From an uncultured Francisellaceae bacterium (GTDB lineage Bacteria > Pseudomonadota > Gammaproteobacteria > Francisellales > CACEW01), in assembly GCA_905612315.1 (NCBI GenBank), contig CAJQSL010000020.1:2341-66340 (forward strand): a stretch of 64,000 nucleotides of DNA, written 5' to 3'. The notes below the pieces were generated by a model. The model saw only the letters and a program-made list of their open reading frames with translations. It ran no database searches and was not told the DNA's origin. This document shows positions 22,760 to 45,492 of this stretch, in pieces (positions within the stretch are counted from its first letter, which is position 1; each line of letters starts with the position of its first letter). Made by a program: the position numbers and the translations under genes.

Positions 22760-23941
22760 ATGATTTTAGAAATAGATAATAATAGGTTAAAAAGGGGGAA
22801 GGGTATGGAATATATATTTGCGGATTATTTGATTAAATCTGATAACATAGATGAGGCGTCAATGGCGCTAGTTGTAGGACAGTCTATAGGCAATCCTTAT
22901 AAGCGATCTAATTATGAAACGGCAGAAATATTAAAAAGATACTATGCTACTGTTACTAGCATAGAGCAGAGCGGAGATGCCTATTTAGTAAAAACCAAAT
23001 TTCCTGTTGATTTATTTACTCCTGGCTCCTTTACTCATCTTGTAACGGTGCTTATGGGTGGTCAGATGGACATTGATATTATCAAATCATGTCGCTTGGT
23101 AAGGGTTGATCTTCCTGAGAAGTTTTCACGTTCTTTTCCTGGACCTAAATATGGCATAGAAGGCATTAGGCATCTTATCAAGGCCTATAACCGGCCACTG
23201 ATCGGGGGTATTGTCAAACCCAAGACTGGTCTAAGTTTGAGTGTTCTGTGTGAAATTGTTGAAAAAATGGTTTCAGGAGGAATAGATTTTATTAAAGAAG
23301 ATGAAATTCTTGGTGAAATACAAGGAGCCTGTGTCAAAGAAAGAATTAAGGCTGTGGCAAGTGTTTTAAAGGGTACAAATGTCATATTTGCTCCTGCAAT
23401 TAATGTGCCAATAAATCAGTATCAAGATATTGCTGAAGTACTTAATGCTTATGATAATATTTATGGATATCACTTAAATGTATGGGCTGGACTTGATGCC
23501 TTTCAATATCTATCTGCTCTTGCAAAAAAAGTATCATTCTATCAAAAGTCCGGTGATGGAGTTATTACTAGGGGAAGGTATTCAATATCTTTTGATGTCT
23601 GGTGTAGATTTGCTCGACTTGCTGGTGCAGATATGATTCATGTTGGTATGTTAGGAGGGTATTTGGATGAGCCGCAAGATGTGCTGCAAAGACGAATTGA
23701 TGCATTGCAAAACCCTTTTTATGGCCATAAGGGGACGATTCCTAGTTTTAGTTGTGGGGCCACTCCAGAGCATGTTCCTATGCTTCAAAAAATATTTGGA
23801 AATGATATTATGATTTCAGCTGGAGGATCTATCCATTCTCATAAAGATGGTAGTCTGGCGGGGGTTAGAGAGTTTCGTCAAATGGCTGATGCATGTGCAA
23901 CGACCATGTCTGAAAAAGGGTTAGAGCATGCAGAAGTATAA
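22760..23941 (+). CDS. RuBisCO-like protein (form IV RuBisCO large-subunit homologue)
   Basis: Motifs GGIVKPKTGLS and GGIDFIKEDE. LAGADMIHVGMLGGYLD and SAGGSIHSHKDG align to the RuBisCO active-site segments. An alternative start ATG at 22805 follows AAAGGGGGAAGGG. Confidence 0.85.
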   Translation: MILEIDNNRLKRGKGMEYIFADYLIKSDNIDEASMALVVGQSIGNPYKRSNYETAEILKRYYATVTSIEQSGDAYLVKTKFPVDLFTPGSFTHLVTVLMGGQMDIDIIKSCRLVRVDLPEKFSRSFPGPKYGIEGIRHLIKAYNRPLIGGIVKPKTGLSLSVLCEIVEKMVSGGIDFIKEDEILGEIQGACVKERIKAVASVLKGTNVIFAPAINVPINQYQDIAEVLNAYDNIYGYHLNVWAGLDAFQYLSALAKKVSFYQKSGDGVITRGRYSISFDVWCRFARLAGADMIHVGMLGGYLDEPQDVLQRRIDALQNPFYGHKGTIPSFSCGATPEHVPMLQKIFGNDIMISAGGSIHSHKDGSLAGVREFRQMADACATTMSEKGLEHAEV

Positions 23942-24254
23942 TATTAATAACTATAAGGAAGGATGGTTTATTGGTTGCTTTGAGCCATCTATTTTTAAAA
24001 CTAAAGATTTTGAAGTCGCTCTTAAAGTTCATCGTAAAGGCGAGCATATAGCTAAGCATCGCCATTTATTAGCAGTTGAAATGAACTTATGTATTTCAGG
24101 TGAGATGCATGTTAATGGTTGTGATATAAAAAAAGGCGATATTTTTGTGTTTGATAAAGGGGAAGCATGTGATGTTAATGTGATATCCGATGAGGTTCAA
24201 GTTATATGTGTTAAGTCACCATCAATTCCATCGGATAAAGAAATATGCGAATAG
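23928..24254 (+). CDS. Metal-binding cupin-domain protein
   Basis: 108 aa. Exact cupin motif 1, G-X5-H-X-H-X4-E-X6-G, in KGEHIAKHRHLLAVEMNLCISG. The start overlaps the RLP stop by 14 nt. Confidence 0.7.
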   Translation: MQKYNINNYKEGWFIGCFEPSIFKTKDFEVALKVHRKGEHIAKHRHLLAVEMNLCISGEMHVNGCDIKKGDIFVFDKGEACDVNVISDEVQVICVKSPSIPSDKEICE

Positions 24255-24982
24255 TAGTAATGCCTATGGCTGGATCTGGAAGTCGTTTTAGTAATCTCCA
24301 TCCAGACAAAAAATTAATGCCTATACCTCCTAATAATGATCCTATGTTTATCCATGCTATAAAGAATATTGGATTTGAATTTGATAAGATAGTTTTGTTG
24401 CCACAAAAAGCGAATCAAATAAATTCTGTATTGAATGACTTTAAGGAAATAAAAAAAAAATCAGTAGTTATTGAAACTAACAAGCTTACCAGGGGGCCGC
24501 TTGATACAGTTATGTATGCAAGGCAGTTTTTAGAAGAAAATCCACATGCACAGTTGCTTATTTGTAATTGTGATCAGGTTTTATCCTGGCCGGGTGATTG
24601 GGCACTGGAGTGGTTTCGAGATAGAAATGCTGTGGGAGGCATTCCTACTGTAGAAAGATATAGTGAAAGACACTCTTATGCAAAAATAGACGAAAATTAT
24701 GCATGTAAAATTATTGCGGTAAAAGAAAAGCAGAAGATATCAAATCGAGCCACTATTGGCTTATACTGGTTTCAAACTACATTCGGTTTTTTAAAAGCGG
24801 CAGATACTGTTTTTGATAAAAGAGATACGGCCCCCAATGGAGAGTATTATGTTTCGCATGTCTATAATTATTTGAAAGGACTGATTCTTGAGTATCCTTT
24901 GTGTGAGTTTTGGTCATTAGGAGAGCCGGAAAATTATCTAAATTATATTTCGAAAAATTATATGATAGGAATGGAGGGGTAG
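24245..24982 (+). CDS. Nucleotidyltransferase (sugar/alcohol-phosphate nucleotidylyltransferase fold)
   Basis: 245 aa. N-terminal MRIVVMPMAGSGSRF (the GxGxR signature of NTP-transferases). The start overlaps the cupin stop. Confidence 0.65.
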   Translation: MRIVVMPMAGSGSRFSNLHPDKKLMPIPPNNDPMFIHAIKNIGFEFDKIVLLPQKANQINSVLNDFKEIKKKSVVIETNKLTRGPLDTVMYARQFLEENPHAQLLICNCDQVLSWPGDWALEWFRDRNAVGGIPTVERYSERHSYAKIDENYACKIIAVKEKQKISNRATIGLYWFQTTFGFLKAADTVFDKRDTAPNGEYYVSHVYNYLKGLILEYPLCEFWSLGEPENYLNYISKNYMIGMEG

Positions 24983-27118
24983 TTGATAATGAAGTCTAGT
25001 TTTAAATCAAAGTCTATGCAGTTTTTTTTGCTTTCATTTGTGGTTTTACTGTTTAATGTTGTAATTTATAGCCCATCATTACGCTTTGATGTTACTAATG
25101 AAATGCCTTGGAGGCAAACAGATTCTCAGGCGGAGATTACCGCTTACGCTAAAAATACTACTAGGTTTTACTTGCCAACTGTTAATGCCTCGCTTAAAGA
25201 ATGGGGTCCGGGAGTTATAGAAATTGTTTTTCCTATTTATCAATTTGTTACTGGTAAAATGGTTCCACTTCTAACACCTTTAATAAAAAACAATTTGCAT
25301 TCAGATGTTAAAGGGCCAATTAAGCTTCCTTATGGTATGCATTTTAAAAAATATACTGAAAGTAAGATATTAAAAGGTGATAAAGTTATATATACCCTTA
25401 AGTTTACTCTAGCTCCATCATGGGAATATAAGCTTGCCACTTTGTTTCATAATAATATATCTCAATATTTGCATTTATATTTGGTTTCTAATAAAACCAG
25501 CATGGATAAAAAATGCATTTCATTGGAAGTTAATGGCAATGCTAGCGCAGATACGCCAAGAGAATATTGTTATTCTAATAATGTTATACCTGTTACTTAT
25601 ATTCCTATCTTGCCTGGAGAGAATACTTTTAAGTTTATTTTTAGTAAGAGTATGGCCCCAGGGAATTTAGAGTCGGCAATTAGTTTGTTCCCAACTTCTA
25701 AATACGCAAGTCCCATGTTATTTGTCGGGCGTTTGCTTAATATGTTTGCAGTTGTAGCTATTTCATTAATAATAGCTGTTACGTTTTTCCCTTCGTTAAA
25801 GTATAGATATGCATGTGCCATAGCAATTTCAGCTATACCTGCATTTGGATTTTTTGAAACCTTTATTCATGAAGAAATACAAGCATTTTTATTTGTGTCT
25901 ATTTTTCTTTGGGTTGTTTTTAAAAAGAACTTGAGTCTGAGGTGGTTAGTCTTTGCATCTGTATCTCTTTCAATAGCGGTAGCAATAAGGCCTTACTATA
26001 TTTTGTATAGTTTGATGCTTATTGCATTTATGTTTCGTCAGGATGGTTTTAATATGCTGAAAAAAGCTTCATATTATTTGGCGGGCATATTAATAATAAC
26101 CCCTGCTATATTATGGTATTCCTGGACACAGCACCTTGTTAGGAATGGCGCGGATACTATTGGTATTTTTTCAGGGCGTGTATTTTTGAGTTCTTTGCTT
26201 GATTCTGCGAAGTGGCATGCCTTTTTGGGATTTTTCACGAAGTTCCATTTCGGATTGCCAGTATTCTTTCTTTTTATAATTACAATAGTTGTTTATTTAT
26301 GCTTGCGCTTTAGTAAGAAAATAACATCAAATTTTAATTTTGATGTTTTTCTCGGAGTTGGCTTTATAATTAGTTTAATTTCTCTGCCTTTGATTTTTGA
26401 TTCAGCGTCAATACATAATTATTATTCATTTCCTATTACATCTTATTTTTCAATTGCTTCTATTATATGTTTTTATGAAATATATAAAAATATAGATAAA
26501 AAGCCATACTTGAATAAAAAAAATGAACTATTAAGATTTTCATTTAAAAATATTTTATTTCTTTCTTTTTTCTCTGTGATTATAGTGTCTGGAGTAGCTC
26601 ATACCTATGTTAGATTTTACAAAAATGAGAGAACAGTTTACGACCCGTTGGATTATGTATTATTGGGGGGAGTACCTGGAGAGATATTTTCAAGTAGTGA
26701 TAAAATTGTTTTATTAGGATCAGGTGGGCCGCAAGATTATGGCATGACTAATCGTAATGGAAGAAGAGATGCTGGATTTTATTCTGGATATCACTTCCAA
26801 TCTGTTTCAGAGATTAAAGAGGTGTTAAAAAATGAAAGAAAATATTCAGTAGATACATTAACAACATTTAATAATGATATTCAGCAATTCAAAATTAAAG
26901 ATGAGGATATGAAAAGTTTAACATATTATCTAAACACTTATTATGGACCCATTTCATCATATGCTGGCATTGGTAGTTGTAAGGCAGCTTTGCATAGAAC
27001 TAAAACTTGGGATTTATATACAAAGTTTATATACGAGCTGGCAAAAAATACAAAGGGAAGTGTTGTGTATAAGTATCTAGTAAGCACCCCTTGTTTATTT
27101 ATAAAGTTTCCAAAGTAA
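24983..27118 (+). CDS. Polytopic GT-C-type glycosyltransferase-like membrane protein (copy 1)
   Basis: 711 aa. N-terminal TM, a large hydrophilic insert, about 10 further TMs and a soluble C-terminal domain. Its position next to GT2 + GtrA fits a three-component (GtrABC/ArnCT-like) periplasmic glycosylation system. The real start may be the ATG at 24989. Confidence 0.55.
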   Translation: MIMKSSFKSKSMQFFLLSFVVLLFNVVIYSPSLRFDVTNEMPWRQTDSQAEITAYAKNTTRFYLPTVNASLKEWGPGVIEIVFPIYQFVTGKMVPLLTPLIKNNLHSDVKGPIKLPYGMHFKKYTESKILKGDKVIYTLKFTLAPSWEYKLATLFHNNISQYLHLYLVSNKTSMDKKCISLEVNGNASADTPREYCYSNNVIPVTYIPILPGENTFKFIFSKSMAPGNLESAISLFPTSKYASPMLFVGRLLNMFAVVAISLIIAVTFFPSLKYRYACAIAISAIPAFGFFETFIHEEIQAFLFVSIFLWVVFKKNLSLRWLVFASVSLSIAVAIRPYYILYSLMLIAFMFRQDGFNMLKKASYYLAGILIITPAILWYSWTQHLVRNGADTIGIFSGRVFLSSLLDSAKWHAFLGFFTKFHFGLPVFFLFIITIVVYLCLRFSKKITSNFNFDVFLGVGFIISLISLPLIFDSASIHNYYSFPITSYFSIASIICFYEIYKNIDKKPYLNKKNELLRFSFKNILFLSFFSVIIVSGVAHTYVRFYKNERTVYDPLDYVLLGGVPGEIFSSSDKIVLLGSGGPQDYGMTNRNGRRDAGFYSGYHFQSVSEIKEVLKNERKYSVDTLTTFNNDIQQFKIKDEDMKSLTYYLNTYYGPISSYAGIGSCKAALHRTKTWDLYTKFIYELAKNTKGSVVYKYLVSTPCLFIKFPK

Positions 27119-27142
27119 CAAATTGTTTTTATGGTTTAAATT

Positions 27143-28000
27143 ATGAAAGATATAGGTGTAGATAGTCTGCTTTCTTGTGAAGTTGCCAAAGCCTGTGATG
27201 ACTACTTGTCTTTACTAAATGTTTCTATAGATACTATAAATATTAAAAGTCTTGATAAAGATTCTTTAATAAAGAATTATTCGTTAATTAGCAAAAAAGA
27301 GCTGACTCTTATATCAGTTTTTTATAACGAGCAGTCTAATGTCATGCCTTTTTATTTAGAATGCAGGCGACTAAATAGAATTTTTAATATTAAAAACTTT
27401 ATTTTTGTACAAAATGGATCAACTGATAATACAGAAAAACTATTGGACAAACTAAGTGAGTTGGATTCCCGGGTTAAAATAGTAACTATAGAAAATAATC
27501 AAGGATATGGTTATGGATTTAAACAGGGCCTTGCGGCGAGTAAAACTGACTTAGTATTATTAAATCACTCAGATTGCCAATTCGATGCGTATGCTTATTT
27601 TACTCAGCACTTTCCTTTAGTTATGAGTTTTGATCCAGAGGTTGATTTGCTTATTCCTGTAAGAAGGGGGCGTACATTTTATCCAAAGATTCGTAGCATT
27701 GCCCTTAGGTGTCTAGCTTCTATAATACTCAGGCAGGCTGTTGTAGAATTTAATGGCCAACCAAAAATATTTTTGAAAAGCAAAATTAAAAATCTAGATT
27801 TATTGCCAAATGACTTTTGTTTTGATGCTGCCGTAATTCATCAGCTTTTAAAGCAGTATAAACGTAGGTTCTTTCTTGATTCTGTTGAATTGCCAAGGTT
27901 TGATGGTGTTTCTTCATGGTCCAGGCTGCTGTCAGGTCAAGTTAAGTTAACTTGGAGTTATATTTTTGGCATTTTAAAGCTTAAAAGATGTAGGTTTTAG
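27143..28000 (+). CDS. GT2-family glycosyltransferase, polyprenyl-phosphate sugar synthase-like (copy 1)
   Basis: 285 aa. Contains LTLISVFYNEQSNV ... FVQNGSTDNT ... NQGYGYGFKQGL ... LLNHSDCQFD (GT-A fold with a DxD-like motif). Confidence 0.7.
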   Translation: MKDIGVDSLLSCEVAKACDDYLSLLNVSIDTINIKSLDKDSLIKNYSLISKKELTLISVFYNEQSNVMPFYLECRRLNRIFNIKNFIFVQNGSTDNTEKLLDKLSELDSRVKIVTIENNQGYGYGFKQGLAASKTDLVLLNHSDCQFDAYAYFTQHFPLVMSFDPEVDLLIPVRRGRTFYPKIRSIALRCLASIILRQAVVEFNGQPKIFLKSKIKNLDLLPNDFCFDAAVIHQLLKQYKRRFFLDSVELPRFDGVSSWSRLLSGQVKLTWSYIFGILKLKRCRF

Positions 28001-28017
28001 TTGAGAGTTTTTTTATT

Positions 28018-28479
28018 ATGATAATTATAGCTCATAGAGGTAATATTAATGGTATAAATAGTACCAATCATAATGTGGCTAAAATTTGGGATGCAATTGA
28101 AGATGGATTTTATGTAGAACTAGATCTTTGGTGTATTAAAAACAATTATTATCTAGGGCATGACAAACCTGAGGTACAAATTCAGCTGACAGATTTTGAT
28201 CACCCTCAAGTTTTTTTTCACCTTAAGAATCTTTTTCTACCAAAGTTAAAATTTGCAGATGCTTTTGCTATTAATAATGATGATTATGTGTTTACGCTGC
28301 GTGATAAATTATGGTGCAATTATAAAGTGGGGTATTCGAATGATTCTATCATATGTGCTCCTGAGCTTGTTGGATCTACCGATAATTTGGATGATTTCAT
28401 AAATGGTCATCGGGGAGCGTTTGGTATATGTACAGATTATGGCATGAAAGTAAGAAATATTCTTAGTAGCCTAGTATGA
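28018..28479 (+). CDS. Short glycerophosphodiester phosphodiesterase (GDPD)-like protein (copy 1)
   Basis: 153 aa. Has IAHRGN, VELDLW and LGHDKP, matching the GDPD catalytic HR..E.D..HD pattern. It is much shorter than a full GDPD barrel. Confidence 0.5.
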   Translation: MIIIAHRGNINGINSTNHNVAKIWDAIEDGFYVELDLWCIKNNYYLGHDKPEVQIQLTDFDHPQVFFHLKNLFLPKLKFADAFAINNDDYVFTLRDKLWCNYKVGYSNDSIICAPELVGSTDNLDDFINGHRGAFGICTDYGMKVRNILSSLV

Positions 28480-28874
28480 TATTATATAAGCAATATAAAT
28501 CTATATTTTTTCAGTTATGTCGTTTTGGAATTGTTGGCGTAAGTGCAGTAATTATAAATTTATTAATTGTGATTTTTATTGTAGAGACATTTGATTGGCC
28601 GCCATTATTGGCAAATATTATTGGATTTATTGTTGCTTGTCAGGTTGCTTTCTTGGGTCATAATTTATGGACTTTTAAAATGGATACCGACGCAAGTAAC
28701 TCTTGGTTGAAGTTTGTGATGGTTGCGACTTTTAGTTTGGGTTTAACTCAATTATTGTTTTTTATTTTACTGCAAGTTTTCGCTTTATATTATGTTTTTG
28801 CTTTAATTCTGACTCAAATGCTAGTTCCTATTGTGACATTTTTATTGAGTAAATACTGGGCTTTTAGGCATTGA
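28476..28874 (+). CDS. GtrA-family small membrane protein (lipid-linked sugar translocation) (copy 1)
   Basis: 132 aa with four TMs. N-terminal FQLCRFGIVGVSAVIINLLI and C-terminal KYWAFR are typical of the GtrA family. Overlaps the preceding stop by 4 nt. Confidence 0.75.
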   Translation: MILYKQYKSIFFQLCRFGIVGVSAVIINLLIVIFIVETFDWPPLLANIIGFIVACQVAFLGHNLWTFKMDTDASNSWLKFVMVATFSLGLTQLLFFILLQVFALYYVFALILTQMLVPIVTFLLSKYWAFRH

Positions 28875-28937
28875 TTTAGGTGCTGGATTTTGCCTTGGGT
28901 TAGTGTTATTGTTTAAATCTTATTTTAGTGAGTGTAG

Positions 28938-29255
<318 letters not shown>

Positions 29256-29354: not shown

Positions 29355-31274
29355 GTGGGGGTTATTGTGAATATTATAATGCCAATTAATGGTATTGGTA
29401 GTCGTTTTGTTAATGAGTCATACCTGACCCCTAAGTCACTTATAAAGATTTTGGGAAAGCCGATGATAGTTCGTGTAATTGAGTCTCTTTCCTTAACGCA
29501 AAGTGATTTGATTACTATAATTTATCGCAGTTCATTAGATGAAATGGGTTTTTGCGATTTATTGAAGCATTATTTTGGCGAGTTTAATTTTAATTTCATT
29601 CCCATTTGCCATGATACTAAAGGTGCGGCTGATACTGTTTTGCGGGGAATTGCAAGTTTATCCTTAGGTGCTTTAGATGTTCCACAACTTATTCTCGATT
29701 GTGATACTATTTATCATGGAGACATTATTCATGAGTATAAAAAGTATCAAGATAATAGGATATTTTACTTTCATGATTTAGAAGGTGAACCAATCTATTC
29801 ATATATAGAAGTTGATGAAAATTTTTATGTACGAAATATAGCGGAAAAGAGGAAGATATCACATTATGCTAGTGTGGGTTGCTATGGTTTTAAAAATGGT
29901 TTATTGTTGCGGAAATATTGTGAGAAAGCCATTAGTTCACTAAACAGTGGAAATGAGCGTTACATCTCCGATGTTTATGGGTCAATGCTAAGGGATGGCA
30001 TATCAGTTGGTGCGAGTCAATATGAGAAATTTAGCTGTGTTGGAACACCTCTTCAGTTAAAATATTTTTCATCATTGCCAGATAATAGTGATAGAGTATT
30101 ACGTTTTTGTTTTGATATTGATAATACGCTAGTTACCTATCCTGCGGTTAGAGGAGACTACTCAACTGTACGTCCTATACCTGAAGTAATTTCATTTTTG
30201 AAAATAGTTAAGTCTCTAGGACACTACATAATTCTTTACACCGCTCGCCGAATGAAAACACACAATGGGAATGTTAAAGCTGTTATAGAAGATATAAAGG
30301 AAGTAACTCTTGCAACACTTTCAAAATTCGAGATTCCCTTCGATGAAATTAATTTTGGCAAGCCGTACGCAGATTTTTATATTGATGATTTAGCGATCGA
30401 CCCTAAAAAGTGCCTTGAAAAGCAAACAGGATTTTATGACCTGGATATTATGCCAAGAGACTACCATACATTGAATGTTATCGATGGGTGGTATAAAAAA
30501 TCAGGTAATATTCAAGGTGAATTGTTTTGGTATAATTCAGTTCCCAAACAACTTAGTATATTTTTGCCAGATCATAGGTCAATAAATGACGAAGAGCTAT
30601 TAACGAAAAAAGTTGAGGGGCTATCTTTCACTCACTTATTTATTAACAATGCCCTTAAGTCTGATTACTTGGAGAAGTTGTTAAATGCTCTTGATATAAT
30701 ACATTCATATCCCATTTCTGAAAAACTTGACAACCAAAATCTAATTTATTTGAATTATGCCAAAAAGCTTAAAGAAAGGTTCGATGGCTATTCATATAGT
30801 AGATTTGAAAGGAGTCAAGAGGTCTATGATTTCTTGTTATCATCATTAGTTTCCTATTCTGATCAGAATTTGGGGGTTTTAGGAATAATTCATGGTGATC
30901 CTGTTTTCACCAACTGTTTTCTCACAACCAATGGTAAAATTAAGTTTATTGATCCTCGTGGAGAGTTGGGACATGAAAAGTCAATTTATGGTGATATATT
31001 TTATGATCTGTCAAAAGTATATCAGTCATTGGTTGGTTATGACTTTATAGTGATGGGAAAAGTATTAGATTTTAAAGCTATACAATCTCTAAAGTCTTTT
31101 TTTGAAAATTACGTTGAGGATAGGTGGGGAAGGCATAGGATGTCACACATAAAAATAATTACAGCCGCTAATCTTTTTTCTCTTATTCCTCTTCATAATA
31201 ACGATAAGTGTAAGTTTTATTATGATTTAATAGGTGAGATAAATCTTGATCTATCTAAGGAGGTAATATTTTGA
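29355..31274 (+). CDS. Trifunctional fusion: nucleotidyltransferase - HAD phosphatase - APH/choline-kinase-like kinase
   Basis: 639 aa. N-terminus MPINGIGSRF resembles the 245-aa nucleotidyltransferase. The middle has HAD motifs FCFDIDNTLV, ILYTARR and GKPYADFYIDDLAI. The C-terminus has the kinase Brenner-type motif IIHGDPVFTNCF and FIDPRG. The likely start is the GTG at 29367 or the ATG at 29379. Confidence 0.65.
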   Translation: MGVIVNIIMPINGIGSRFVNESYLTPKSLIKILGKPMIVRVIESLSLTQSDLITIIYRSSLDEMGFCDLLKHYFGEFNFNFIPICHDTKGAADTVLRGIASLSLGALDVPQLILDCDTIYHGDIIHEYKKYQDNRIFYFHDLEGEPIYSYIEVDENFYVRNIAEKRKISHYASVGCYGFKNGLLLRKYCEKAISSLNSGNERYISDVYGSMLRDGISVGASQYEKFSCVGTPLQLKYFSSLPDNSDRVLRFCFDIDNTLVTYPAVRGDYSTVRPIPEVISFLKIVKSLGHYIILYTARRMKTHNGNVKAVIEDIKEVTLATLSKFEIPFDEINFGKPYADFYIDDLAIDPKKCLEKQTGFYDLDIMPRDYHTLNVIDGWYKKSGNIQGELFWYNSVPKQLSIFLPDHRSINDEELLTKKVEGLSFTHLFINNALKSDYLEKLLNALDIIHSYPISEKLDNQNLIYLNYAKKLKERFDGYSYSRFERSQEVYDFLLSSLVSYSDQNLGVLGIIHGDPVFTNCFLTTNGKIKFIDPRGELGHEKSIYGDIFYDLSKVYQSLVGYDFIVMGKVLDFKAIQSLKSFFENYVEDRWGRHRMSHIKIITAANLFSLIPLHNNDKCKFYYDLIGEINLDLSKEVIF

Positions 31275-31348
31275 GTCAAGGACTAGTTTTACATTTGACT
31301 TATTAAGAGTTATGTTGGAAAAATTATATAATAGGAATAGAGGGTTAG

Positions 31349-33484
31349 TTGATAGTGAAGTCTAGTTTTAAATCAAAGTCTATGCAGTTTTTTTTGCTTT
31401 CATTTGTGGTTTTACTGTTTAATGTTGTAATTTATAGCCCATCATTACGCTTTGATGTTACTAATGAAATGCCTTGGAGGCAAACAGATTCTCAGGCGGA
31501 GATTACCGCTTACGCTAAAAATACTACTAGGTTTTACTTGCCAACTGTTAATGCCTCGCTTAAAGAATGGGGTCCGGGAGTTATAGAAATTGTTTTTCCT
31601 ATTTATCAATTTGTTACTGGTAAAATGGTTCCACTTCTAACACCTTTAATAAAAAACAATTTGCATTCAGATGTTAAAGGGCCAATTAAGCTTCCTTATG
31701 GTATGCATTTTAAAAAATATACTGAAAGTAAGATATTAAAAGGTGATAAAGTTATATATACCCTTAAGTTTACTCTAGCTCCATCATGGGAATATAAGCT
31801 TGCCACTTTGTTTCATAATAATATATCTCAATATTTGCATTTATATTTGGTTTCTAATAAAACCAGCATGGATAAAAAATGCATTTCATTGGAAGTTAAT
31901 GGCAATGCTAGCGCAGATACGCCAAGAGAATATTGTTATTCTAATAATGTTATACCTGTTACTTATATTCCTATCTTGCCTGGAGAGAATACTTTTAAGT
32001 TTATTTTTAGTAAGAGTATGGCCCCAGGGAATTTAGAGTCGGCAATTAGTTTGTTCCCAACTTCTAAATACGCAAGTCCCATGTTATTTGTCGGGCGTTT
32101 GCTTAATATGTTTGCAGTTGTAGCTATTTCATTAATAATAGCTGTTACGTTTTTCCCTTCGTTAAAGTATAGATATGCATGTGCCATAGCAATTTCAGCT
32201 ATACCTGCATTTGGATTTTTTGAAACCTTTATTCATGAAGAAATACAAGCATTTTTATTTGTGTCTATTTTTCTTTGGGTTGTTTTTAAAAAGAACTTGA
32301 GTCTGAGGTGGTTAGTCTTTGCATCTGTATCTCTTTCAATAGCGGTAGCAATAAGGCCTTACTATATTTTGTATAGTTTGATGCTTATTGCATTTATGTT
32401 TCGTCAGGATGGTTTTAATATGCTGAAAAAAGCTTCATATTATTTGGCGGGCATATTAATAATAACCCCTGCTATATTATGGTATTCCTGGACACAGCAC
32501 CTTGTTAGGAATGGCGCGGATACTATTGGTATTTTTTCAGGGCGTGTATTTTTGAGTTCTTTGCTTGATTCTGCGAAGTGGCATGCCTTTTTGGGATTTT
32601 TCACGAAGTTCCATTTCGGATTGCCAGTATTCTTTCTTTTTATAATTACAATAGTTGTTTATTTATGCTTGCGCTTTAGTAAGAAAATAACATCAAATTT
32701 TAATTTTGATGTTTTTCTCGGAGTTGGCTTTATAATTAGTTTAATTTCTCTGCCTTTGATTTTTGATTCAGCGTCAATACATAATTATTATTCATTTCCT
32801 ATTACATCTTATTTTTCAATTGCTTCTATTATATGTTTTTATGAAATATATAAAAATATAGATAAAAAGCCATACTTGAATAAAAAAAATGAACTATTAA
32901 GATTTTCATTTAAAAATATTTTATTTCTTTCTTTTTTCTCTGTGATTATAGTGTCTGGAGTAGCTCATACCTATGTTAGATTTTACAAAAATGAGAGAAC
33001 AGTTTACGACCCGTTGGATTATGTATTATTGGGGGGAGTACCTGGAGAGATATTTTCAAGTAGTGATAAAATTGTTTTATTAGGATCAGGTGGGCCGCAA
33101 GATTATGGCATGACTAATCGTAATGGAAGAAGAGATGCTGGATTTTATTCTGGATATCACTTCCAATCTGTTTCAGAGATTAAAGAGGTGTTAAAAAATG
33201 AAAGAAAATATTCAGTAGATACATTAACAACATTTAATAATGATATTCAGCAATTCAAAATTAAAGATGAGGATATGAAAAGTTTAACATATTATCTAAA
33301 CACTTATTATGGACCCATTTCATCATATGCTGGCATTGGTAGTTGTAAGGCAGCTTTGCATAGAACTAAAACTTGGGATTTATATACAAAGTTTATATAC
33401 GAGCTGGCAAAAAATACAAAGGGAAGTGTTGTGTATAAGTATCTAGTAAGCACCCCTTGTTTATTTATAAAGTTTCCAAAGTAA
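31349..33484 (+). CDS. Polytopic GT-C-type glycosyltransferase-like membrane protein (copy 2)
   Basis: Translation identical to 24983..27118 except residue 3 (V instead of M). Confidence 0.55.
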   Translation: MIVKSSFKSKSMQFFLLSFVVLLFNVVIYSPSLRFDVTNEMPWRQTDSQAEITAYAKNTTRFYLPTVNASLKEWGPGVIEIVFPIYQFVTGKMVPLLTPLIKNNLHSDVKGPIKLPYGMHFKKYTESKILKGDKVIYTLKFTLAPSWEYKLATLFHNNISQYLHLYLVSNKTSMDKKCISLEVNGNASADTPREYCYSNNVIPVTYIPILPGENTFKFIFSKSMAPGNLESAISLFPTSKYASPMLFVGRLLNMFAVVAISLIIAVTFFPSLKYRYACAIAISAIPAFGFFETFIHEEIQAFLFVSIFLWVVFKKNLSLRWLVFASVSLSIAVAIRPYYILYSLMLIAFMFRQDGFNMLKKASYYLAGILIITPAILWYSWTQHLVRNGADTIGIFSGRVFLSSLLDSAKWHAFLGFFTKFHFGLPVFFLFIITIVVYLCLRFSKKITSNFNFDVFLGVGFIISLISLPLIFDSASIHNYYSFPITSYFSIASIICFYEIYKNIDKKPYLNKKNELLRFSFKNILFLSFFSVIIVSGVAHTYVRFYKNERTVYDPLDYVLLGGVPGEIFSSSDKIVLLGSGGPQDYGMTNRNGRRDAGFYSGYHFQSVSEIKEVLKNERKYSVDTLTTFNNDIQQFKIKDEDMKSLTYYLNTYYGPISSYAGIGSCKAALHRTKTWDLYTKFIYELAKNTKGSVVYKYLVSTPCLFIKFPK

Positions 33485-33508
33485 CAAATTGTTTTTATGG
33501 TTTAAATT

Positions 33509-34366
33509 ATGAAAGATATAGGTGTAGATAGTCTGCTTTCTTGTGAAGTTGCCAAAGCCTGTGATGACTACTTGTCTTTACTAAATGTTTCTATAGATAC
33601 TATAAATATTAAAAGTCTTGATAAAGATTCTTTAATAAAGAATTATTCGTTAATTAGCAAAAAAGAGCTGACTCTTATATCAGTTTTTTATAACGAGCAG
33701 TCTAATGTCATGCCTTTTTATTTAGAATGCAGGCGACTAAATAGAATTTTTAATATTAAAAACTTTATTTTTGTACAAAATGGATCAACTGATAATACAG
33801 AAAAACTATTGGACAAACTAAGTGAGTTGGATTCCCGGGTTAAAATAGTAACTATAGAAAATAATCAAGGATATGGTTATGGATTTAAACAGGGCCTTGC
33901 GGCGAGTAAAACTGACTTAGTATTATTAAATCACTCAGATTGCCAATTCGATGCGTATGCTTATTTTACTCAGCACTTTCCTTTAGTTATGAGTTTTGAT
34001 CCAGAGGTTGATTTGCTTATTCCTGTAAGAAGGGGGCGTACATTTTATCCAAAGATTCGTAGCATTGCCCTTAGGTGTCTAGCTTCTATAATACTCAGGC
34101 AGGCTGTTGTAGAATTTAATGGCCAACCAAAAATATTTTTGAAAAGCAAAATTAAAAATCTAGATTTATTGCCAAATGACTTTTGTTTTGATGCTGCCGT
34201 AATTCATCAGCTTTTAAAGCAGTATAAACGTAGGTTCTTTCTTGATTCTGTTGAATTGCCAAGGTTTGATGGTGTTTCTTCATGGTCCAGGCTGCTGTCA
34301 GGTCAAGTTAAGTTAACTTGGAGTTATATTTTTGGCATTTTAAAGCTTAAAAGATGTAGGTTTTAG
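33509..34366 (+). CDS. GT2-family glycosyltransferase (copy 2)
   Basis: Translation identical to 27143..28000. Confidence 0.7.
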   Translation: MKDIGVDSLLSCEVAKACDDYLSLLNVSIDTINIKSLDKDSLIKNYSLISKKELTLISVFYNEQSNVMPFYLECRRLNRIFNIKNFIFVQNGSTDNTEKLLDKLSELDSRVKIVTIENNQGYGYGFKQGLAASKTDLVLLNHSDCQFDAYAYFTQHFPLVMSFDPEVDLLIPVRRGRTFYPKIRSIALRCLASIILRQAVVEFNGQPKIFLKSKIKNLDLLPNDFCFDAAVIHQLLKQYKRRFFLDSVELPRFDGVSSWSRLLSGQVKLTWSYIFGILKLKRCRF

Positions 34367-34383
34367 TTGAGAGTTTTTTTATT

Positions 34384-34845
34384 ATGATAATTATAGCTCA
34401 TAGAGGTAATATTAATGGTATAAATAGTACCAATCATAATGTGGCTAAAATTTGGGATGCAATTGAAGATGGATTTTATGTAGAACTAGATCTTTGGTGT
34501 ATTAAAAACAATTATTATCTAGGGCATGACAAACCTGAGGTACAAATTCAGCTGACAGATTTTGATCACCCTCAAGTTTTTTTTCACCTTAAGAATCTTT
34601 TTCTACCAAAGTTAAAATTTGCAGATGCTTTTGCTATTAATAATGATGATTATGTGTTTACGCTGCGTGATAAATTATGGTGCAATTATAAAGTGGGGTA
34701 TTCGAATGATTCTATCATATGTGCTCCTGAGCTTGTTGGATCTACCGATAATTTGGATGATTTCATAAATGGTCATCGGGGAGCGTTTGGTATATGTACA
34801 GATTATGGCATGAAAGTAAGAAATATTCTTAGTAGCCTAGTATGA
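34384..34845 (+). CDS. Short GDPD-like protein (copy 2)
   Basis: Translation identical to 28018..28479. Confidence 0.5.
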   Translation: MIIIAHRGNINGINSTNHNVAKIWDAIEDGFYVELDLWCIKNNYYLGHDKPEVQIQLTDFDHPQVFFHLKNLFLPKLKFADAFAINNDDYVFTLRDKLWCNYKVGYSNDSIICAPELVGSTDNLDDFINGHRGAFGICTDYGMKVRNILSSLV

Positions 34846-35240
34846 TATTATATAAGCAATATAAATCTATATTTTTTCAGTTATGTCGTTTTGGAATTGT
34901 TGGCGTAAGTGCAGTAATTATAAATTTATTAATTGTGATTTTTATTGTAGAGACATTTGATTGGCCGCCATTATTGGCAAATATTATTGGATTTATTGTT
35001 GCTTGTCAGGTTGCTTTCTTGGGTCATAATTTATGGACTTTTAAAATGGATACCGACGCAAGTAACTCTTGGTTGAAGTTTGTGATGGTTGCGACTTTTA
35101 GTTTGGGTTTAACTCAATTATTGTTTTTTATTTTACTGCAAGTTTTCGCTTTATATTATGTTTTTGCTTTAATTCTGACTCAAATGCTAGTTCCTATTGT
35201 GACATTTTTATTGAGTAAATACTGGGCTTTTAGGCATTGA
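34842..35240 (+). CDS. GtrA-family membrane protein (copy 2)
   Basis: Translation identical to 28476..28874. Confidence 0.75.
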   Translation: MILYKQYKSIFFQLCRFGIVGVSAVIINLLIVIFIVETFDWPPLLANIIGFIVACQVAFLGHNLWTFKMDTDASNSWLKFVMVATFSLGLTQLLFFILLQVFALYYVFALILTQMLVPIVTFLLSKYWAFRH

Positions 35241-35303
35241 TTTAGGTGCTGGATTTTGCCTTGGGTTAGTGTTATTGTTTAAATCTTATTTTAGTGAGTG
35301 TAG

Positions 35304-36407
<1,104 letters not shown>

Positions 36408-42234: not shown

Positions 42235-43014
42235 TTAGGTATATGGATTCTTTTCAAGAAGTGCGTATTTATTATTTTTTAACATATCCATACCTGTATC
42301 AAATACGCCATTTATTTCGCAAACACAAACTGGTAATTTATCATCTATCATCATTGTCCTCATGCATCCATTTTTTATTGATTGATAATACAATGCTAAG
42401 TTATCAGTTCTTATATCCAAGTCATAATTTCTAACATTATATAAAAATGTATCTTCGATTCTCTTATCTTCATTAATTATCGCACCGGGAAATTTTTTTA
42501 TATATCTATAATCGACTTTAAAATACTGCTCTAGATAATGTAAAAATGTGGAAGGAGGACTGCCTGGATTTACAATAGGAAGATTTAAAAATAACCCTTT
42601 AGCTCTCATTTTTAATAATCTATCGAATATACTATCCTTACCAAATGCATCTGTAGAGATATTGTTTGTGATATCTTTGGCATGCTTGCCAATTGCAACA
42701 AAAGAAAAAATAGGGTGCAAAGATCTAAAGCTATCTTTATGATTAAGCATAAAGTTTGAGAAATAACCAACTACTGACATGGTTTTCTTAGAATCAAAAA
42801 TACCGGTTTGACAGAAGCTATAGGTAAAGCTAGGAACGATTAGTGTCCCATCTCTTCCAATGACACTGAAAATTGATTCCAATATATTGCTACAATGCTG
42901 CTTTAACTTTATATTATTATCACGGCATATGTCGGTATCTACATGCATTAAAACGACATCGTTTTTTTTAATTCCTAGTTCTGTGATTGCACTAATAATT
43001 TTCTTAATAATCAT
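42235..43014 (-). CDS. AAC(3)/YokD-family N-acyltransferase
   Basis: 259 aa. Contains ELGIKKNDVVLMHVDTD ... GTLIVPSFTYSF, as in the aminoglycoside 3-N-acetyltransferase family. Confidence 0.65.
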   Translation of the reverse strand: MIIKKIISAITELGIKKNDVVLMHVDTDICRDNNIKLKQHCSNILESIFSVIGRDGTLIVPSFTYSFCQTGIFDSKKTMSVVGYFSNFMLNHKDSFRSLHPIFSFVAIGKHAKDITNNISTDAFGKDSIFDRLLKMRAKGLFLNLPIVNPGSPPSTFLHYLEQYFKVDYRYIKKFPGAIINEDKRIEDTFLYNVRNYDLDIRTDNLALYYQSIKNGCMRTMMIDDKLPVCVCEINGVFDTGMDMLKNNKYALLEKNPYT

Positions 43015-43070
43015 TTTGTATAAACTCCATTAAGTTACAATAATAACTGATAAAACTAAAAGTAAGCTTG

Positions 43071-45491: not shown

Positions 45492-45492
45492 G

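What the first reader, a model, noticed from the sequence alone, without database searches (positions are those of the whole stretch)
29355..31274. Single 639-aa polypeptide fusing a nucleotidyltransferase, a HAD phosphatase and an APH/choline-kinase-like kinase
Three domains can be read from the translation:
- The N-terminus MPINGIGSRF is paralogous to the 245-aa nucleotidyltransferase at 24245.
- The middle has all HAD motifs (DIDNT, YTARR, GKP...DD).
- The C-terminus has the protein-kinase-like HGD-x4-N and FIDPRG motifs.

Kinase, phosphatase and nucleotidyltransferase together are the logic of an activated-sugar pathway, as in bisphosphate-intermediate routes such as NDP-heptose. Here the kinase is of the APH type rather than GHMP, and all three activities are fused.

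This gene is the only unique content between the two copies of the 4.3-kb transfer block. It looks like an alternative donor-synthesis head for the same transfer machinery that follows the RLP/cupin/nucleotidyltransferase head.
Basis: partly seen in the sequence, partly recalled or inferred. Interest (0 to 1): 0.7.

Follow-up and report, generated by a model that had tools for sequence, protein, structure and literature searches.

The report
Three-enzyme fusion for sugar-nucleotide synthesis
This bacterial gene joins a sugar kinase, a phosphatase and a nucleotidyltransferase in one protein that probably turns a sugar phosphate into an activated sugar for decorating the cell surface; it is a fused, uncharacterised relative of a phage pathway described in 2026 and is common in giant viruses and large phages.

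Summary
ORF 29355-31274 (+) is intact; its likely start is GTG 29367, giving 635 aa. It has three domains with invariant catalytic motifs: a sugar-1-phosphate nucleotidyltransferase, a small HAD phosphatase and an APH/choline-kinase-fold kinase.

It is not an assembly artefact. At least 120 full-length relatives (43-51% identity) exist, and 284 viral contigs carry one.

The only characterised relatives are phage AfhE (nucleotidyltransferase plus D-arabinose-5-phosphate 1-kinase) and AfhF (HAD phosphatase). Together they make UDP-D-arabinofuranose through a 1,5-bisphosphate. The window's kinase and HAD domains are homologous to them, with the HAD placed between the other two.

The gene is the only content between two copies of a 4.3-kb block that are identical over 4,045 nt. 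The block encodes a divergent GT-C glycosyltransferase, a GT2, a 153-aa protein of unknown function and GtrA, which is a polyprenyl-phosphate-sugar transfer set.

Most likely mechanism: sugar-ω-phosphate → 1,ω-bisphosphate → sugar-1-phosphate → NDP-sugar → lipid-linked sugar → periplasmic transfer. The sugar is unproven. A pentofuranose such as D-Araf is favoured; a hexose or HexNAc is a real rival.

Verdict: a new variant of a known kind, of moderate interest.

The parts
29367..31274 (+). Trifunctional gene (nucleotidyltransferase-HAD-kinase), 635 aa from GTG 29367. The longest ORF starts at GTG 29355; the database gene call starts at ATG 29379.
29367..30074 (+). Sugar-1-phosphate nucleotidyltransferase domain (GxGxR, K19, D107/D109, E156-K157)
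   Evidence: Pfam PF00483 above gathering score; 4evw profile E 2.6e-24; Foldseek
30096..30428 (+). Small capless HAD phosphatase domain (DxD, T, K, DD motifs) of the AfhF / TIGR01689 type
30441..31271 (+). APH/choline-kinase-fold kinase domain (HGDxxxxN, IDPRG), homologous to the C-terminal kinase of AfhE-type phage proteins
24949..29239 (+). Copy 1 of the 4.3-kb transfer block. Identical to copy 2 from 24990 to 29034. Ends inside a 91-aa 5' fragment of a PseB-like gene (28980-29255).
31315..35605 (+). Copy 2 of the transfer block. Runs into the intact PseB-like gene (35346-36407).
24983..27118 (+). 711-aa polytopic membrane protein, a divergent GT-C (PMT_2/ArnT-like) glycosyltransferase. Second copy at 31349-33484.
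   Evidence: No Pfam or PDB hit; only itself in the word-indexed search; 12 remote relatives, 7 of the 10 scanned are PMT_2
27143..28000 (+). 285-aa GT2 glycosyltransferase, candidate polyprenyl-phosphate sugar synthase. Second copy at 33509-34366.
   Evidence: Pfam Glycos_transf_2 E 1.5e-14; longest PDB match is GtrB sll0501, E 1.6e-4
28018..28479 (+). 153-aa soluble protein of unknown function. Second copy at 34384-34845.
   Evidence: No Pfam, NCBIfam or significant PDB match
28476..28874 (+). 132-aa GtrA-family membrane protein, candidate flippase for lipid-linked sugar. Second copy at 34842-35240.
   Evidence: Pfam GtrA_DPMS_TM E 1.9e-23
22760..24982 (+). The other 'head': RuBisCO-like protein (22760-23941), cupin (23928-24254) and a 245-aa nucleotidyltransferase (24245-24982) paralogous to the fusion's N-terminal domain

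Best explanation
The gene encodes one polypeptide that makes an NDP-sugar from a sugar carrying a phosphate at its far end.

**Proposed steps**
1. The C-terminal kinase phosphorylates the anomeric hydroxyl, giving a 1,ω-bisphosphate.
2. The central HAD domain removes the distal phosphate, giving a sugar-1-phosphate.
3. The N-terminal nucleotidyltransferase couples it to an NTP.

This is the chemistry reported for phage AfhE + AfhF: D-arabinose-5-P → Araf-1,5-P2 → Araf-1-P → UDP-D-Araf. Here the HAD is inserted between the two AfhE-like domains.

**Proposed fate of the product**
- The GT2 of the adjacent block would accept the NDP-sugar and make a polyprenyl-phosphate-sugar.
- GtrA would flip it across the membrane.
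- The 711-aa GT-C enzyme would transfer it onto a periplasmic glycan, probably O-antigen or LPS.

**The sugar**
- The favoured sugar is a pentofuranose. D-Araf from arabinose-5-phosphate fits best, because phosphorylating a 5-phosphopentose locks the furanose ring.
- Its identity is the weakest link.

**Shown versus inferred**
- Shown: the three folds, the invariant catalytic motifs, homology of two domains to AfhE/AfhF-type proteins, and the gene arrangement.
- Inferred: the substrate, the order of steps, the nucleotide used, and the coupling to the GT2/GtrA/GT-C block.
For: **The three active sites are conserved**
- Catalytic motifs of all three domains are invariant across 35 homologues sharing 43-51% identity with the window protein.
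- Full-length AlphaFold model: pLDDT 88.8. Kinase-domain model: pLDDT 91.4, with the APH/choline-kinase fold.

**Homology to the characterised phage enzymes**
- Kinase domain against DLP3 gp82 C-terminal domain: 28% identity over 219 aa, E 3e-14. hhalign probability 98.8%, E 1.4e-16.
- HAD against DLP3 gp81: 30% identity, E 4e-14.
- HAD against PDB 9iqw: E 5.2e-9 for the single sequence and 1.7e-13 for the family profile. The 104-residue stretch of 9iqw tested is 100% identical to a protein of E. coli Mosigvirus phages.
- PMC13326640, section 27, equates DLP3 gp81/gp82 and RB69 gp51/gp52:53 with HY126 AfhF/AfhE. It reports their activities, citing He et al. 2026.

**The same three components recur unfused in bacterial surface-glycan loci**
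- Legionella sainthelensi plasmid: 34%, 42% and 28% identity to the nucleotidyltransferase, HAD and kinase domains.
- Phaeobacter and E. coli plasmids, the E. coli O20/O137 cluster and a kps capsule locus.

**The transfer block**
- GtrA Pfam E 1.9e-23.
- GT2 with its longest PDB match to GtrB.
- The 711-aa protein is remotely related to PMT_2 GT-C enzymes.
- The whole cluster is co-directional with no terminator-like signal above chance.
Against: - 28-30% identity is too low to carry substrate specificity over from AfhE/AfhF.
- The nucleotidyltransferase domain shows no significant pairwise match to the AfhE-type N-terminal domain. It is closer to the uncharacterised 4evw.
- No arabinose-5-phosphate isomerase or other SIS gene was found in the 64-kb window or within ±8-10 kb of the fusion in 84 virus-like loci (80 IMG/VR contigs plus L008-L011). 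A5P-using phages always carry one next to these genes.
- Two viral proteins fuse the three domains to a UDP-GlcNAc 2-epimerase. Many viral loci carry RmlB-like dehydratases and DegT aminotransferases. Both point to hexose or HexNAc rather than pentose.
- The GT2 lacks the C-terminal membrane helices of GtrB, and its match to GtrB is weak (E 1.6e-4).
- The GT-C assignment is transitive.
- Nothing was tested biochemically.
Confidence: 0.55

Rival explanations
1. Mutase bypass for a hexose or N-acetylhexosamine. The same three steps act on a common 6-phosphate (Glc6P, Man6P, GlcNAc6P or ManNAc6P) to give the 1-phosphate and then an NDP-hexose or NDP-HexNAc. The product feeds the neighbouring modification enzymes or the GT2.
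For: - Two viral loci encode a four-domain protein with an N-terminal UDP-GlcNAc 2-epimerase (Epimerase_2, E 1.2e-79) in front of the three domains.
- In the viral loci the fusion is often the only sugar-1-phosphate nucleotidyltransferase listed beside dehydratase/epimerase and, in some loci, aminotransferase genes.
- APH-fold anomeric HexNAc kinases exist, and NahK 4ocv is among the fold matches.
- In the window, a pseudaminic-acid-like gene set lies just downstream.
Against: - Bacteria already have phosphoglucomutase and GlmM, so a route that costs one extra ATP is hard to justify in the bacterial capsule and O-antigen loci that carry the unfused module. This is inference.
- The only characterised relatives use a pentose 5-phosphate.
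Confidence: 0.2
2. Salvage-type order without a bisphosphate. The HAD first releases a free sugar (or the substrate is a free sugar or alcohol). The kinase then makes the 1-phosphate (or a phospho-alcohol) and the nucleotidyltransferase activates it, as in AmgK-MurU, NahK or LicA-LicC.
For: - The best fold matches of the kinase are choline/ethanolamine kinases, LicA and APH enzymes.
- Table 1 of PMC13326640 first annotated the phage HAD as 'dephosphorylates Araf5p to Ara' and the kinase as 'phosphorylates Ara to Araf1p'.
Against: [quoted passage not shown]
- LicA/LicC- and AmgK/MurU-type pathways need no phosphatase, yet the HAD is the most conserved domain of the family: 63% mean identity against 38% for the kinase.
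- The partner genes are GT2, GtrA and GT-C, not LicD-type phosphotransferases.
Confidence: 0.12
3. The phosphatase acts after transfer. Kinase and nucleotidyltransferase make an NDP-sugar that still carries its distal phosphate. The HAD then removes that phosphate from the lipid- or glycan-linked product, as the phosphatase does in PRPP-dependent ribofuranosylation (Bcs3 CrpP; the gPRT-PRP enzymes, from my own knowledge).
For: TIGR01689-type HADs occur in capsule loci with TagF-like polymerases. Some ribofuranose-containing capsules are made this way (own knowledge).
Against: - The HAD is covalently placed between two soluble cytosolic domains, and the full-length model folds confidently (pTM 0.80).
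- The phage homologue is reported to act on the free bisphosphate.
Confidence: 0.05
4. Artefact or pseudogene: an assembly or annotation fusion of separate genes, or a decaying remnant left by the duplication.
For: The gene lies at the junction of a perfect 4-kb repeat, next to a truncated PseB-like fragment.
Against: - At least 120 database proteins of 615-640 aa show the same architecture end to end.
- 284 viral contigs carry a relative, and the 80 kept are nearly all full length.
- A full-length structural twin exists in Indivirus (TM 0.86).
- There are no internal stops, and all catalytic residues are intact.
Confidence: 0.01

Closest known systems
Phage AfhE + AfhF (E. coli phage HY126; equivalents RB69 gp52:53 + gp51 and Acinetobacter phage DLP3 gp82 + gp81), the UDP-D-arabinofuranose pathway for arabinosylating 5-hydroxycytosine in DNA (He et al. 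2026, as cited in PMC13326640)
   Same: - The same three activities and folds.
- Kinase and HAD domains are demonstrably homologous.
- The same kinase → phosphatase → nucleotidyltransferase logic through a bisphosphate.
   Different: - Here all three are in one polypeptide, ordered nucleotidyltransferase-HAD-kinase. In the phages it is a nucleotidyltransferase-kinase protein plus a separate HAD.
- The nucleotidyltransferase domain belongs to a different subgroup, closest to 4evw.
- There is no adjacent arabinose-5-phosphate isomerase.
- The setting is a bacterial surface-glycan island with GT2/GtrA/GT-C, not DNA modification with a ThyA homologue and DNA glycosyltransferases.
- Identity is only 28-30%.
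ADP-/GDP-heptose pathways (HldE or HddA kinase, GmhB HAD phosphatase, HldE or HddC nucleotidyltransferase); own knowledge
   Same: The same logic: sugar-7-P → 1,7-bisphosphate → 1-phosphate → NDP-sugar, with a small HAD phosphatase.
   Different: - Different kinase fold (PfkB or GHMP, not APH).
- In HldE, a different nucleotidyltransferase fold.
- No sequence relationship was detected here.
- No GmhA-type isomerase nearby.
AmgK-MurU, NahK and LicA-LicC (APH-fold kinase plus small nucleotidyltransferase); own knowledge and Foldseek
   Same: The same kinase fold (LicA TM about 0.6; NahK among the matches) and the same nucleotidyltransferase superfamily.
   Different: - These pathways start from an unphosphorylated substrate and have no phosphatase.
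- The similarity is at fold level only.
Polyprenyl-phosphate-sugar modification systems: GtrA/GtrB/GtrC, ArnC/ArnT, and mycobacterial decaprenyl-phospho-arabinose with Emb/Aft GT-C enzymes and the GtrA-like Rv3789; own knowledge
   Same: The same set of parts downstream of the fusion: GT2, GtrA-family protein and GT-C membrane glycosyltransferase.
   Different: - The GT-C is nearly an orphan.
- The GT2 lacks GtrB's membrane helices.
- An extra 153-aa protein is present.
- In mycobacteria the lipid-linked Araf comes from PRPP, not from an NDP-sugar.
Uncharacterised structural-genomics proteins 4evw (Vibrio cholerae NDP-sugar pyrophosphorylase) and 1xpj (a 126-aa 'hypothetical protein' HAD)
   Same: They are the closest solved relatives of the nucleotidyltransferase and HAD domains (profile E 2.6e-24 and 1e-22).
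   Different: - They are separate proteins.
- No function is assigned, so they give no information on the substrate.

Membership tests
AfhE/AfhF-type NDP-arabinofuranose pathway | APH-fold kinase homologous to the AfhE C-terminal domain | tested here: met
   BLASTP against DLP3 gp82: 28% identity over 219 aa, E 3e-14. hhalign probability 98.8%. Shared motif IHGDPxFxN...IDPRG...YG..YD.AK....GYD.
AfhE/AfhF-type NDP-arabinofuranose pathway | Small Mg-dependent HAD phosphatase homologous to AfhF | tested here: met
   Against DLP3 gp81: 30% identity, E 4e-14. Against PDB 9iqw, the Mosigvirus phage protein: E 5.2e-9 single sequence, 1.7e-13 profile.
AfhE/AfhF-type NDP-arabinofuranose pathway | Nucleotidyltransferase domain homologous to the AfhE N-terminal domain | tested here: inconclusive
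   Both match Pfam NTP_transferase, but no significant pairwise or profile alignment was reported. RB69 ORF052c is only a fold-level match.
AfhE/AfhF-type NDP-arabinofuranose pathway | Architecture: bifunctional nucleotidyltransferase-kinase protein plus a separate HAD protein | tested here: not met
   A single polypeptide with the HAD between the nucleotidyltransferase and the kinase.
AfhE/AfhF-type NDP-arabinofuranose pathway | Adjacent arabinose-5-phosphate isomerase (SIS domain) | tested here: not met
   tblastn with DLP3 gp83 and a Pelagibacter SIS protein found nothing in the window or in 84 virus-like loci at E < 1e-3. A housekeeping KdsD elsewhere in the genome cannot be excluded.
AfhE/AfhF-type NDP-arabinofuranose pathway | Substrate D-arabinose-5-phosphate, product UDP-D-arabinofuranose | not testable with these tools
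   Needs an enzyme assay.
AfhE/AfhF-type NDP-arabinofuranose pathway | Linked to a 5-hydroxycytosine synthase (ThyA homologue) and DNA arabinosyltransferases | tested here: not met
   The window context is a surface-glycan island. No match to DLP3 gp80, gp79 or gp77.
Sugar-1-phosphate nucleotidyltransferases (Pfam PF00483) | N-terminal GxGxR loop, conserved Lys and acidic residues, Rossmann-like fold | tested here: met
   31.4 bits against a gathering score of 21.2. G5, G7, R9, K19, D107 and D109 are invariant. Foldseek top hits are all NDP-sugar pyrophosphorylases.
HAD superfamily phosphatases (TIGR01689 EcbF/BcbF subgroup) | Four HAD motifs (DxD, T/S, K, DD); score above the curated TIGR01689 cut-off | tested here: inconclusive
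   All four motifs are present and invariant. TIGR01689 gives E 4.7e-17 but only 62 bits against a cut-off of 162. It is a relative of that subfamily, not a member by the curated score.
APH / choline-kinase (eukaryotic-like kinase) fold | Bilobal kinase fold, catalytic HxDxxxxN loop and a metal-binding Asp | tested here: met
   Pfam APH is below threshold: 14.3 bits against 23.2. The model (pLDDT 91.4) matches LicA, choline and ethanolamine kinases, APH(4)-Ia and NahK. H505, D507, N512 and D525 are invariant.
Gtr/Arn-type polyprenyl-phosphate-sugar transfer system (for the flanking block) | GtrA-family protein, GT2 polyprenyl-phosphate glycosyltransferase and GT-C transferase encoded together | tested here: inconclusive
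   GtrA is clear (E 1.9e-23). The GT2 is clear as a family, but its link to GtrB is weak (E 1.6e-4). The GT-C link is only through remote relatives that are PMT_2.

The most novel reading that the evidence does not exclude
The fusion is a one-protein factory for an NDP-pentofuranose (NDP-D-Araf or NDP-D-Ribf). The adjacent GT2, GtrA and GT-C proteins would turn that product into a lipid-linked pentofuranose donor. This would be a route to polyprenyl-phosphate-arabinofuranose or -ribofuranose that needs neither PRPP nor the DprE-type epimerase. The same module, fused or split, would be the missing source of nucleotide-activated furanoses in bacterial O-antigens and capsules. Giant viruses and large phages would have spread it widely as a self-contained sugar-activation cassette.
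Probability: 0.3. Interest if true: 0.75.

Novelty: new variant of a known kind. Interest (0 to 1): 0.55.

Why it matters
- **One assay covers the family.** If the mechanism holds, a large and almost unannotated protein family gets a function. Its members are currently labelled 'capsule biosynthesis phosphatase', 'nucleotidyl transferase domain-containing protein' or 'hypothetical'.
- **Reach.** At least 120 database proteins (each representing a cluster at 90% identity) and 284 viral contigs carry the fused form, including an Indivirus protein. Split versions occur in Legionella, Phaeobacter and E. coli capsule and O-antigen loci.
- **An open question becomes testable.** A 2020 review of E. 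coli O-antigens (PMC7685785) states that a nucleotide-activated ribofuranose has never been demonstrated and that its genes are unknown. This module is a concrete candidate for making such furanose donors.
- **A chemical point.** The kinase/phosphatase pair may be a way to lock a sugar in the furanose form before activation.
- **Limit.** The chemistry itself was described for phages in 2026. This is an extension and a new architecture, not a new principle.

Tried and rejected
**Searches that led nowhere or were wasted**
- The single genome-contig scan, run with the one protein, found only HAD-domain matches in Pelagibacteraceae single-cell genomes. These sit next to GmhA-like SIS genes and are not the fusion.
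- An exact look-up of the window's own protein found no contig on record.
- Cluster look-ups for EF-Tu, RpoB and the NCBI-sourced homologues gave no usable organism name.
- Papers: no paper describes the fused architecture or an RLP-cupin-nucleotidyltransferase set.
- He et al. 2026 and Mahler et al. 2025 are not held.
- The E. coli O137 structure paper could not be read. I could therefore not tie the unfused E. coli module to a known sugar.

**Ideas tested and dropped**
- A K4 fructosylation link (kfoB, kfoD, kfoG of unknown function) was considered but could not be tested.
- The whole-protein Foldseek search was dominated by the nucleotidyltransferase domain, so the kinase domain was modelled and searched separately.
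- I suspected a GDPD-like function for the 153-aa protein from its 'IIAHRGN' start. Pfam, NCBIfam and PDB give no support.
- Promoter and terminator scans around the gene gave nothing above chance.
- Assembly artefact was rejected.
- Membership of the heptose pathway was rejected on fold grounds.
Full report
**1.

The + strand carries an unbroken ORF from 29355 to 31274, 639 codons from GTG.
- The most likely start is the in-frame GTG at 29367. A GGGGG run lies just upstream, and the resulting N-terminus MNIIMPINGIGSRF lines up with the family consensus MNIIIPIGGIGQRF. That gives 635 aa.
- The database copy of this same protein is called from ATG 29379 (631 aa, P0001). Residue numbers below use the 631-aa form.

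Evidence for the three domains:
- **Nucleotidyltransferase.** Pfam finds NTP_transferase at aa 13-212 above its gathering score (E 1.8e-7).
- **HAD.** NCBIfam finds the small HAD family TIGR01689, 'capsule biosynthesis phosphatase', at aa 250-352. E is 4.7e-17, but the score is below the curated cut-off.
- **Kinase.** Pfam APH is only a weak hit (E 0.036).
- **Invariant motifs.** An alignment of 35 homologues sharing 43-51% identity with the window protein shows every expected catalytic residue invariant:
  - nucleotidyltransferase: G5, G7, R9, K19, D107, D109;
  - HAD: D246, D248, T288, K328, D336, D337;
  - kinase: H505, G506, D507, N512, D525.
- **Models.** The AlphaFold model of the whole protein is confident (pLDDT 88.8, pTM 0.80).
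  - Its fold matches are NDP-sugar pyrophosphorylases, with 4evw first.
  - The kinase domain modelled alone (pLDDT 91.4) matches ethanolamine and choline kinases, pneumococcal LicA (TM about 0.6), APH enzymes and the anomeric kinase NahK.

The N-terminal domain is also a paralogue of the 245-aa nucleotidyltransferase at 24245 (27% identity, E 8e-10).

**2. It is not an artefact, and it is not rare**

- The protein search returned 1,978 hits. The best 120 are all 615-640 aa, cover 91-99% of the query, and are mostly unnamed or called 'capsule biosynthesis phosphatase'.
- A scan of IMG/VR found 284 viral contigs with a relative. The 80 kept are nearly all full length. Many are giant-virus MAGs ('GVMAG'), and others are 200-500 kb phage-like contigs.
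- In BFVD the model has an end-to-end twin in Indivirus ILV1: A0A1V0SE67, 635 aa, TM 0.86, 39% identity.
- Contexts of the closest relatives are virus-like:
  - Thg1, RNA ligase, HNH, thymidylate synthase and NUDIX in 110-230 kb contigs.
  - PhoH, PD-(D/E)XK nuclease, very large ORFs and eukaryote-type glycosyltransferase families in marine contigs.
  - T4-type clamp-loader genes in about ten loci.
- No record in the phage collection (GenBank/INPHARED, which includes metagenome-derived entries) carries the fused form. No record covers 80% or more of the query.
- The window's copy is a divergent member: 46% mean identity to the others, against 53% among them. A recent transfer is therefore not indicated.

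**3. What it is related to**

The decisive lead came from the literature.
- Lee et al. (PMC13326640, section 27) describe how RB69 and DLP3 make the arabinose they attach to 5-hydroxycytosine.
- They cite He et al. 2026 (Nat Chem Biol) for experiments on phage HY126:
  - AfhE has an N-terminal pyrophosphorylase domain and a C-terminal kinase domain. It phosphorylates D-arabinose-5-phosphate to the 1,5-bisphosphate.
  - AfhF, a Mg-dependent HAD, removes the 5-phosphate.
  - AfhE then makes UDP-D-arabinofuranose.
- I could not read He et al. directly, so this rests on the citing paper.

Direct comparison with the DLP3 equivalents:
- Kinase against gp82 C-terminal domain: 28% identity over 219 aa, E 3e-14; hhalign probability 98.8%.
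- HAD against gp81: 30% identity, E 4e-14.
- The second-best solved relative of the HAD, 9iqw, is identical over the 104 residues tested to a protein of E. coli Mosigvirus phages, the group that includes RB69.
- tblastn finds the kinase/HAD similarity in 409 phage records.
- The nucleotidyltransferase domain is not detectably similar to the AfhE-type N-terminal domain. It groups with the uncharacterised Vibrio cholerae protein 4evw (profile E 2.6e-24).

So the window protein is best described as an AfhE-like enzyme with an AfhF-like phosphatase inserted between its two domains, and with a nucleotidyltransferase of a different subgroup.

**4. The same module, unfused, in bacteria**

- A Legionella sainthelensi plasmid encodes a kinase (321 aa), a HAD (118 aa) and a nucleotidyltransferase (244 aa) side by side. 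They share 28%, 42% and 34% identity with the three domains and are followed by two WavE-family genes.
- A Phaeobacter inhibens plasmid has HAD, a 465-aa kinase-like protein and a nucleotidyltransferase, next to glf, tagD and a TagF-like polymerase.
- An E. coli plasmid capsule locus has HAD, a 536-aa protein with an APH C-terminal half, a 247-aa nucleotidyltransferase-like protein and a DUF7796 protein.
- DUF7796 is also the most frequent immediate neighbour of the fusion in viral loci: 23 of 84 loci, next to the fusion in 18.
- 124 of 5,426 complete E. coli genomes carry a HAD of this type. Two contexts were examined:
  - It heads the galF-gnd cluster annotated O20/O137, followed by a 529-aa kinase-like protein and a 251-aa nucleotidyltransferase-like protein.
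  - It also occurs in a kps capsule locus.
- The E. coli O-antigen review (PMC7685785) says that a nucleotide-activated ribofuranose has not been demonstrated and that its genes are unknown. It also says the published O20 structure does not fit that gene cluster.
- I could not obtain the O137 structure, so no sugar can be tied to the module outside the phages.

**5. The surroundings in the window**

The window is bacterial. It carries tuf, an rpoB-sized ORF (1,384 aa, in a 90%-identity cluster of other 1,384-aa proteins) and an rpoC-sized ORF upstream (identities by size and order, my own reading). From 20890 on, a co-directional glycan island follows.

Gene order in the island:
- an initiating sugar transferase and a Wzz-like protein;
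- a RuBisCO-like protein, a cupin and the 245-aa nucleotidyltransferase;
- a four-gene block;
- a 91-aa fragment of a PseB-like gene;
- the fusion;
- the same four-gene block again;
- the intact PseB-like gene with a pseudaminic-acid-like set.

The repeat spans 24949-29239 and 31315-35605. It is identical from 24990 to 29034, with a few mismatches at both edges. The fusion is the only gene in the 2,075 nt between the copies.

The block encodes four proteins:
- **A 711-aa polytopic membrane protein.** It has no Pfam or PDB match and only itself in the word-indexed search.
  - A full HMMER scan of 1.84 billion representatives gave 12 remote relatives.
  - Seven of the ten scanned are PMT_2 family GT-C glycosyltransferases, aligned to its membrane core.
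- **A 285-aa GT2.** Its longest PDB match is the polyprenyl-phosphate glucosyltransferase GtrB (E 1.6e-4).
- **A 153-aa protein with no detectable relatives**.
- **A clear GtrA-family protein** (E 1.9e-23).

From my own knowledge of the Gtr, Arn and mycobacterial arabinan systems, this is the parts list of a system that loads a sugar onto polyprenyl phosphate, flips it and transfers it in the periplasm. The two copies are identical, so the two 'heads' must feed the same enzymes. That favours identical or closely similar donors, or a recent recombination that has not yet diverged.

**6. Most likely mechanism, and how sure I am**

I put about 0.55 on this whole chain:
1. A sugar with a distal phosphate is phosphorylated at C1 by the kinase domain.
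2. The HAD removes the distal phosphate.
3. The nucleotidyltransferase activates the sugar-1-phosphate.
4. The product is passed to the GT2/GtrA/GT-C block.

Within that, the sugar is uncertain.

For a pentofuranose (about 0.3-0.35 for D-Araf specifically):
- It is what the only characterised relatives make.
- The kinase/phosphatase pair makes chemical sense as a way to fix the furanose ring. A 5-phosphopentose cannot form a pyranose.
- Lipid-linked Araf and Ribf used by GT-C enzymes have precedent (own knowledge).
- Bacteria that already have mutases for hexoses nevertheless keep the module in their capsule and O-antigen loci.

Against it:
- There is no arabinose-5-phosphate isomerase in the window or near the fusion in 84 virus-like loci.
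- 28-30% identity does not fix specificity.
- Two viral genes fuse the three domains to a UDP-GlcNAc 2-epimerase.
- RmlB-like dehydratases (25 of 84 loci) and DegT aminotransferases (15 of 84) are common neighbours.

Rival readings:
- A hexose or HexNAc 'mutase bypass': about 0.2.
- A salvage-type order without a bisphosphate: about 0.12.
- A phosphatase acting after transfer: about 0.05.

**7. Comparison with what is known, and novelty**

- The chemistry is that of AfhE/AfhF, and by analogy that of the heptose pathways. It is not new in principle.
- New here: the single-chain nucleotidyltransferase-HAD-kinase architecture, which I found described in no paper; its recruitment into a bacterial polyprenyl-phosphate/GT-C glycan-modification locus; and the finding that this fused form is widespread in giant viruses and large uncultivated phages.
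- I file it as a new variant of a known kind, with interest 0.55.

**8. Limits**

- No experiment was possible.
The best hint is that the neighbouring RLP and nucleotidyltransferase are 69% and 63% identical to those of a 'Tatlockia sp.' (Legionellaceae) MAG.
- The activities of AfhE and AfhF are taken from a citing paper.
- The GT-C assignment is transitive.

Noticed in passing
window 22760-24982 (+); loci L104, L105, L106: The RuBisCO-like protein keeps the KPK motif, the carbamate/Mg site (FIKEDE) and the GG phosphate sites, but lacks H294/R295/H298 and K334 (aligned to 2cwx). It is therefore not a carboxylase. Homologues of about 70% identity include one from a 'Tatlockia sp.' MAG. In three Legionellales-like contigs the RLP is always followed by a 245-aa nucleotidyltransferase (63% identical to the window's in L104, the one compared) and preceded by a divergent LicD gene. 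None of those contigs has the cupin or the GT2/GtrA/GT-C block. The RLP-nucleotidyltransferase pair is conserved and its product is unknown.
   Followed up: partly
window 24949-29239 and 31315-35605: The 4.3-kb direct repeat is identical for 4,045 nt, with mismatches only at its edges. Copy 1 ends in a 91-aa 5' fragment of the PseB-like gene, which is intact after copy 2. This looks like a recent recombination or duplication that placed two different 'heads' in front of the same block. Read-level confirmation of the junctions was not possible.
   Followed up: partly
window 24983-27118 (and 31349-33484): The 711-aa membrane protein is close to an orphan. It found only itself among 5.8 billion clustered proteins by the word-indexed search, and 12 remote relatives among 1.84 billion representatives. 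Seven of the ten relatives scanned are PMT_2 GT-C enzymes.
   Followed up: yes
L052 6807-9890; L057 6801-9893 (IMG/VR giant-virus contigs): Four-domain proteins of 1,027 and 1,030 aa: an N-terminal UDP-GlcNAc 2-epimerase domain (Epimerase_2, E 1.2e-79) fused to the nucleotidyltransferase-HAD-kinase unit. This is a Rosetta-stone hint that some family members act in HexNAc metabolism.
   Followed up: partly
L102 (E. coli O20:H12 chromosome, galF-gnd) 7854-10566; L103 (E. coli kps locus) 8186-10858; L101 (E. coli plasmid) 7235-11670: The unfused HAD + kinase-like + nucleotidyltransferase-like module heads the O20/O137 O-antigen gene cluster and occurs in capsule loci with TagF-like polymerases. 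124 of 5,426 complete E. coli genomes carry the HAD. The genes are annotated only as hypothetical, 'GT2', 'APH family' or 'capsule biosynthesis phosphatase'.
   Followed up: partly
viral loci L013-L092; L101 7235-8923: A DUF7796 protein is the commonest immediate neighbour of the fusion in viral loci (23 of 84 loci, adjacent in 18). It also sits next to the unfused module in an E. coli plasmid capsule locus. WavE-family genes follow the module in Legionella. These are candidate partner glycosyltransferases.
   Followed up: no
window 28018-28479 (and 34384-34845): A 153-aa soluble protein lies inside the transfer block between the GT2 and GtrA. It starts MIIIAHRGN, which recalls the HRG motif of glycerophosphodiester phosphodiesterases, but no Pfam, NCBIfam or PDB match supports this.
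   Followed up: partly
window 42235-46626 (-): On the opposite strand at the end of the island lie an 806-aa LuxE-LuxC fusion (acyl-protein synthetase + acyl-CoA reductase), an iron alcohol dehydrogenase and an AAC(3)-like acetyltransferase. This is an unusual fatty-acyl-reducing set inside a glycan locus.
   Followed up: no
L001 9950-10977 and L002-L007 (Pelagibacteraceae single-cell genomes): Stand-alone HADs of the same small family (32-42% identical to the window's HAD domain) occur in all seven loci. In L001 the HAD sits next to a GmhA-like SIS gene and sugar epimerases/dehydratases; SIS-like matches were also found in four of the other six loci. The HAD family is therefore also used in heptose-like contexts.
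   Followed up: partly
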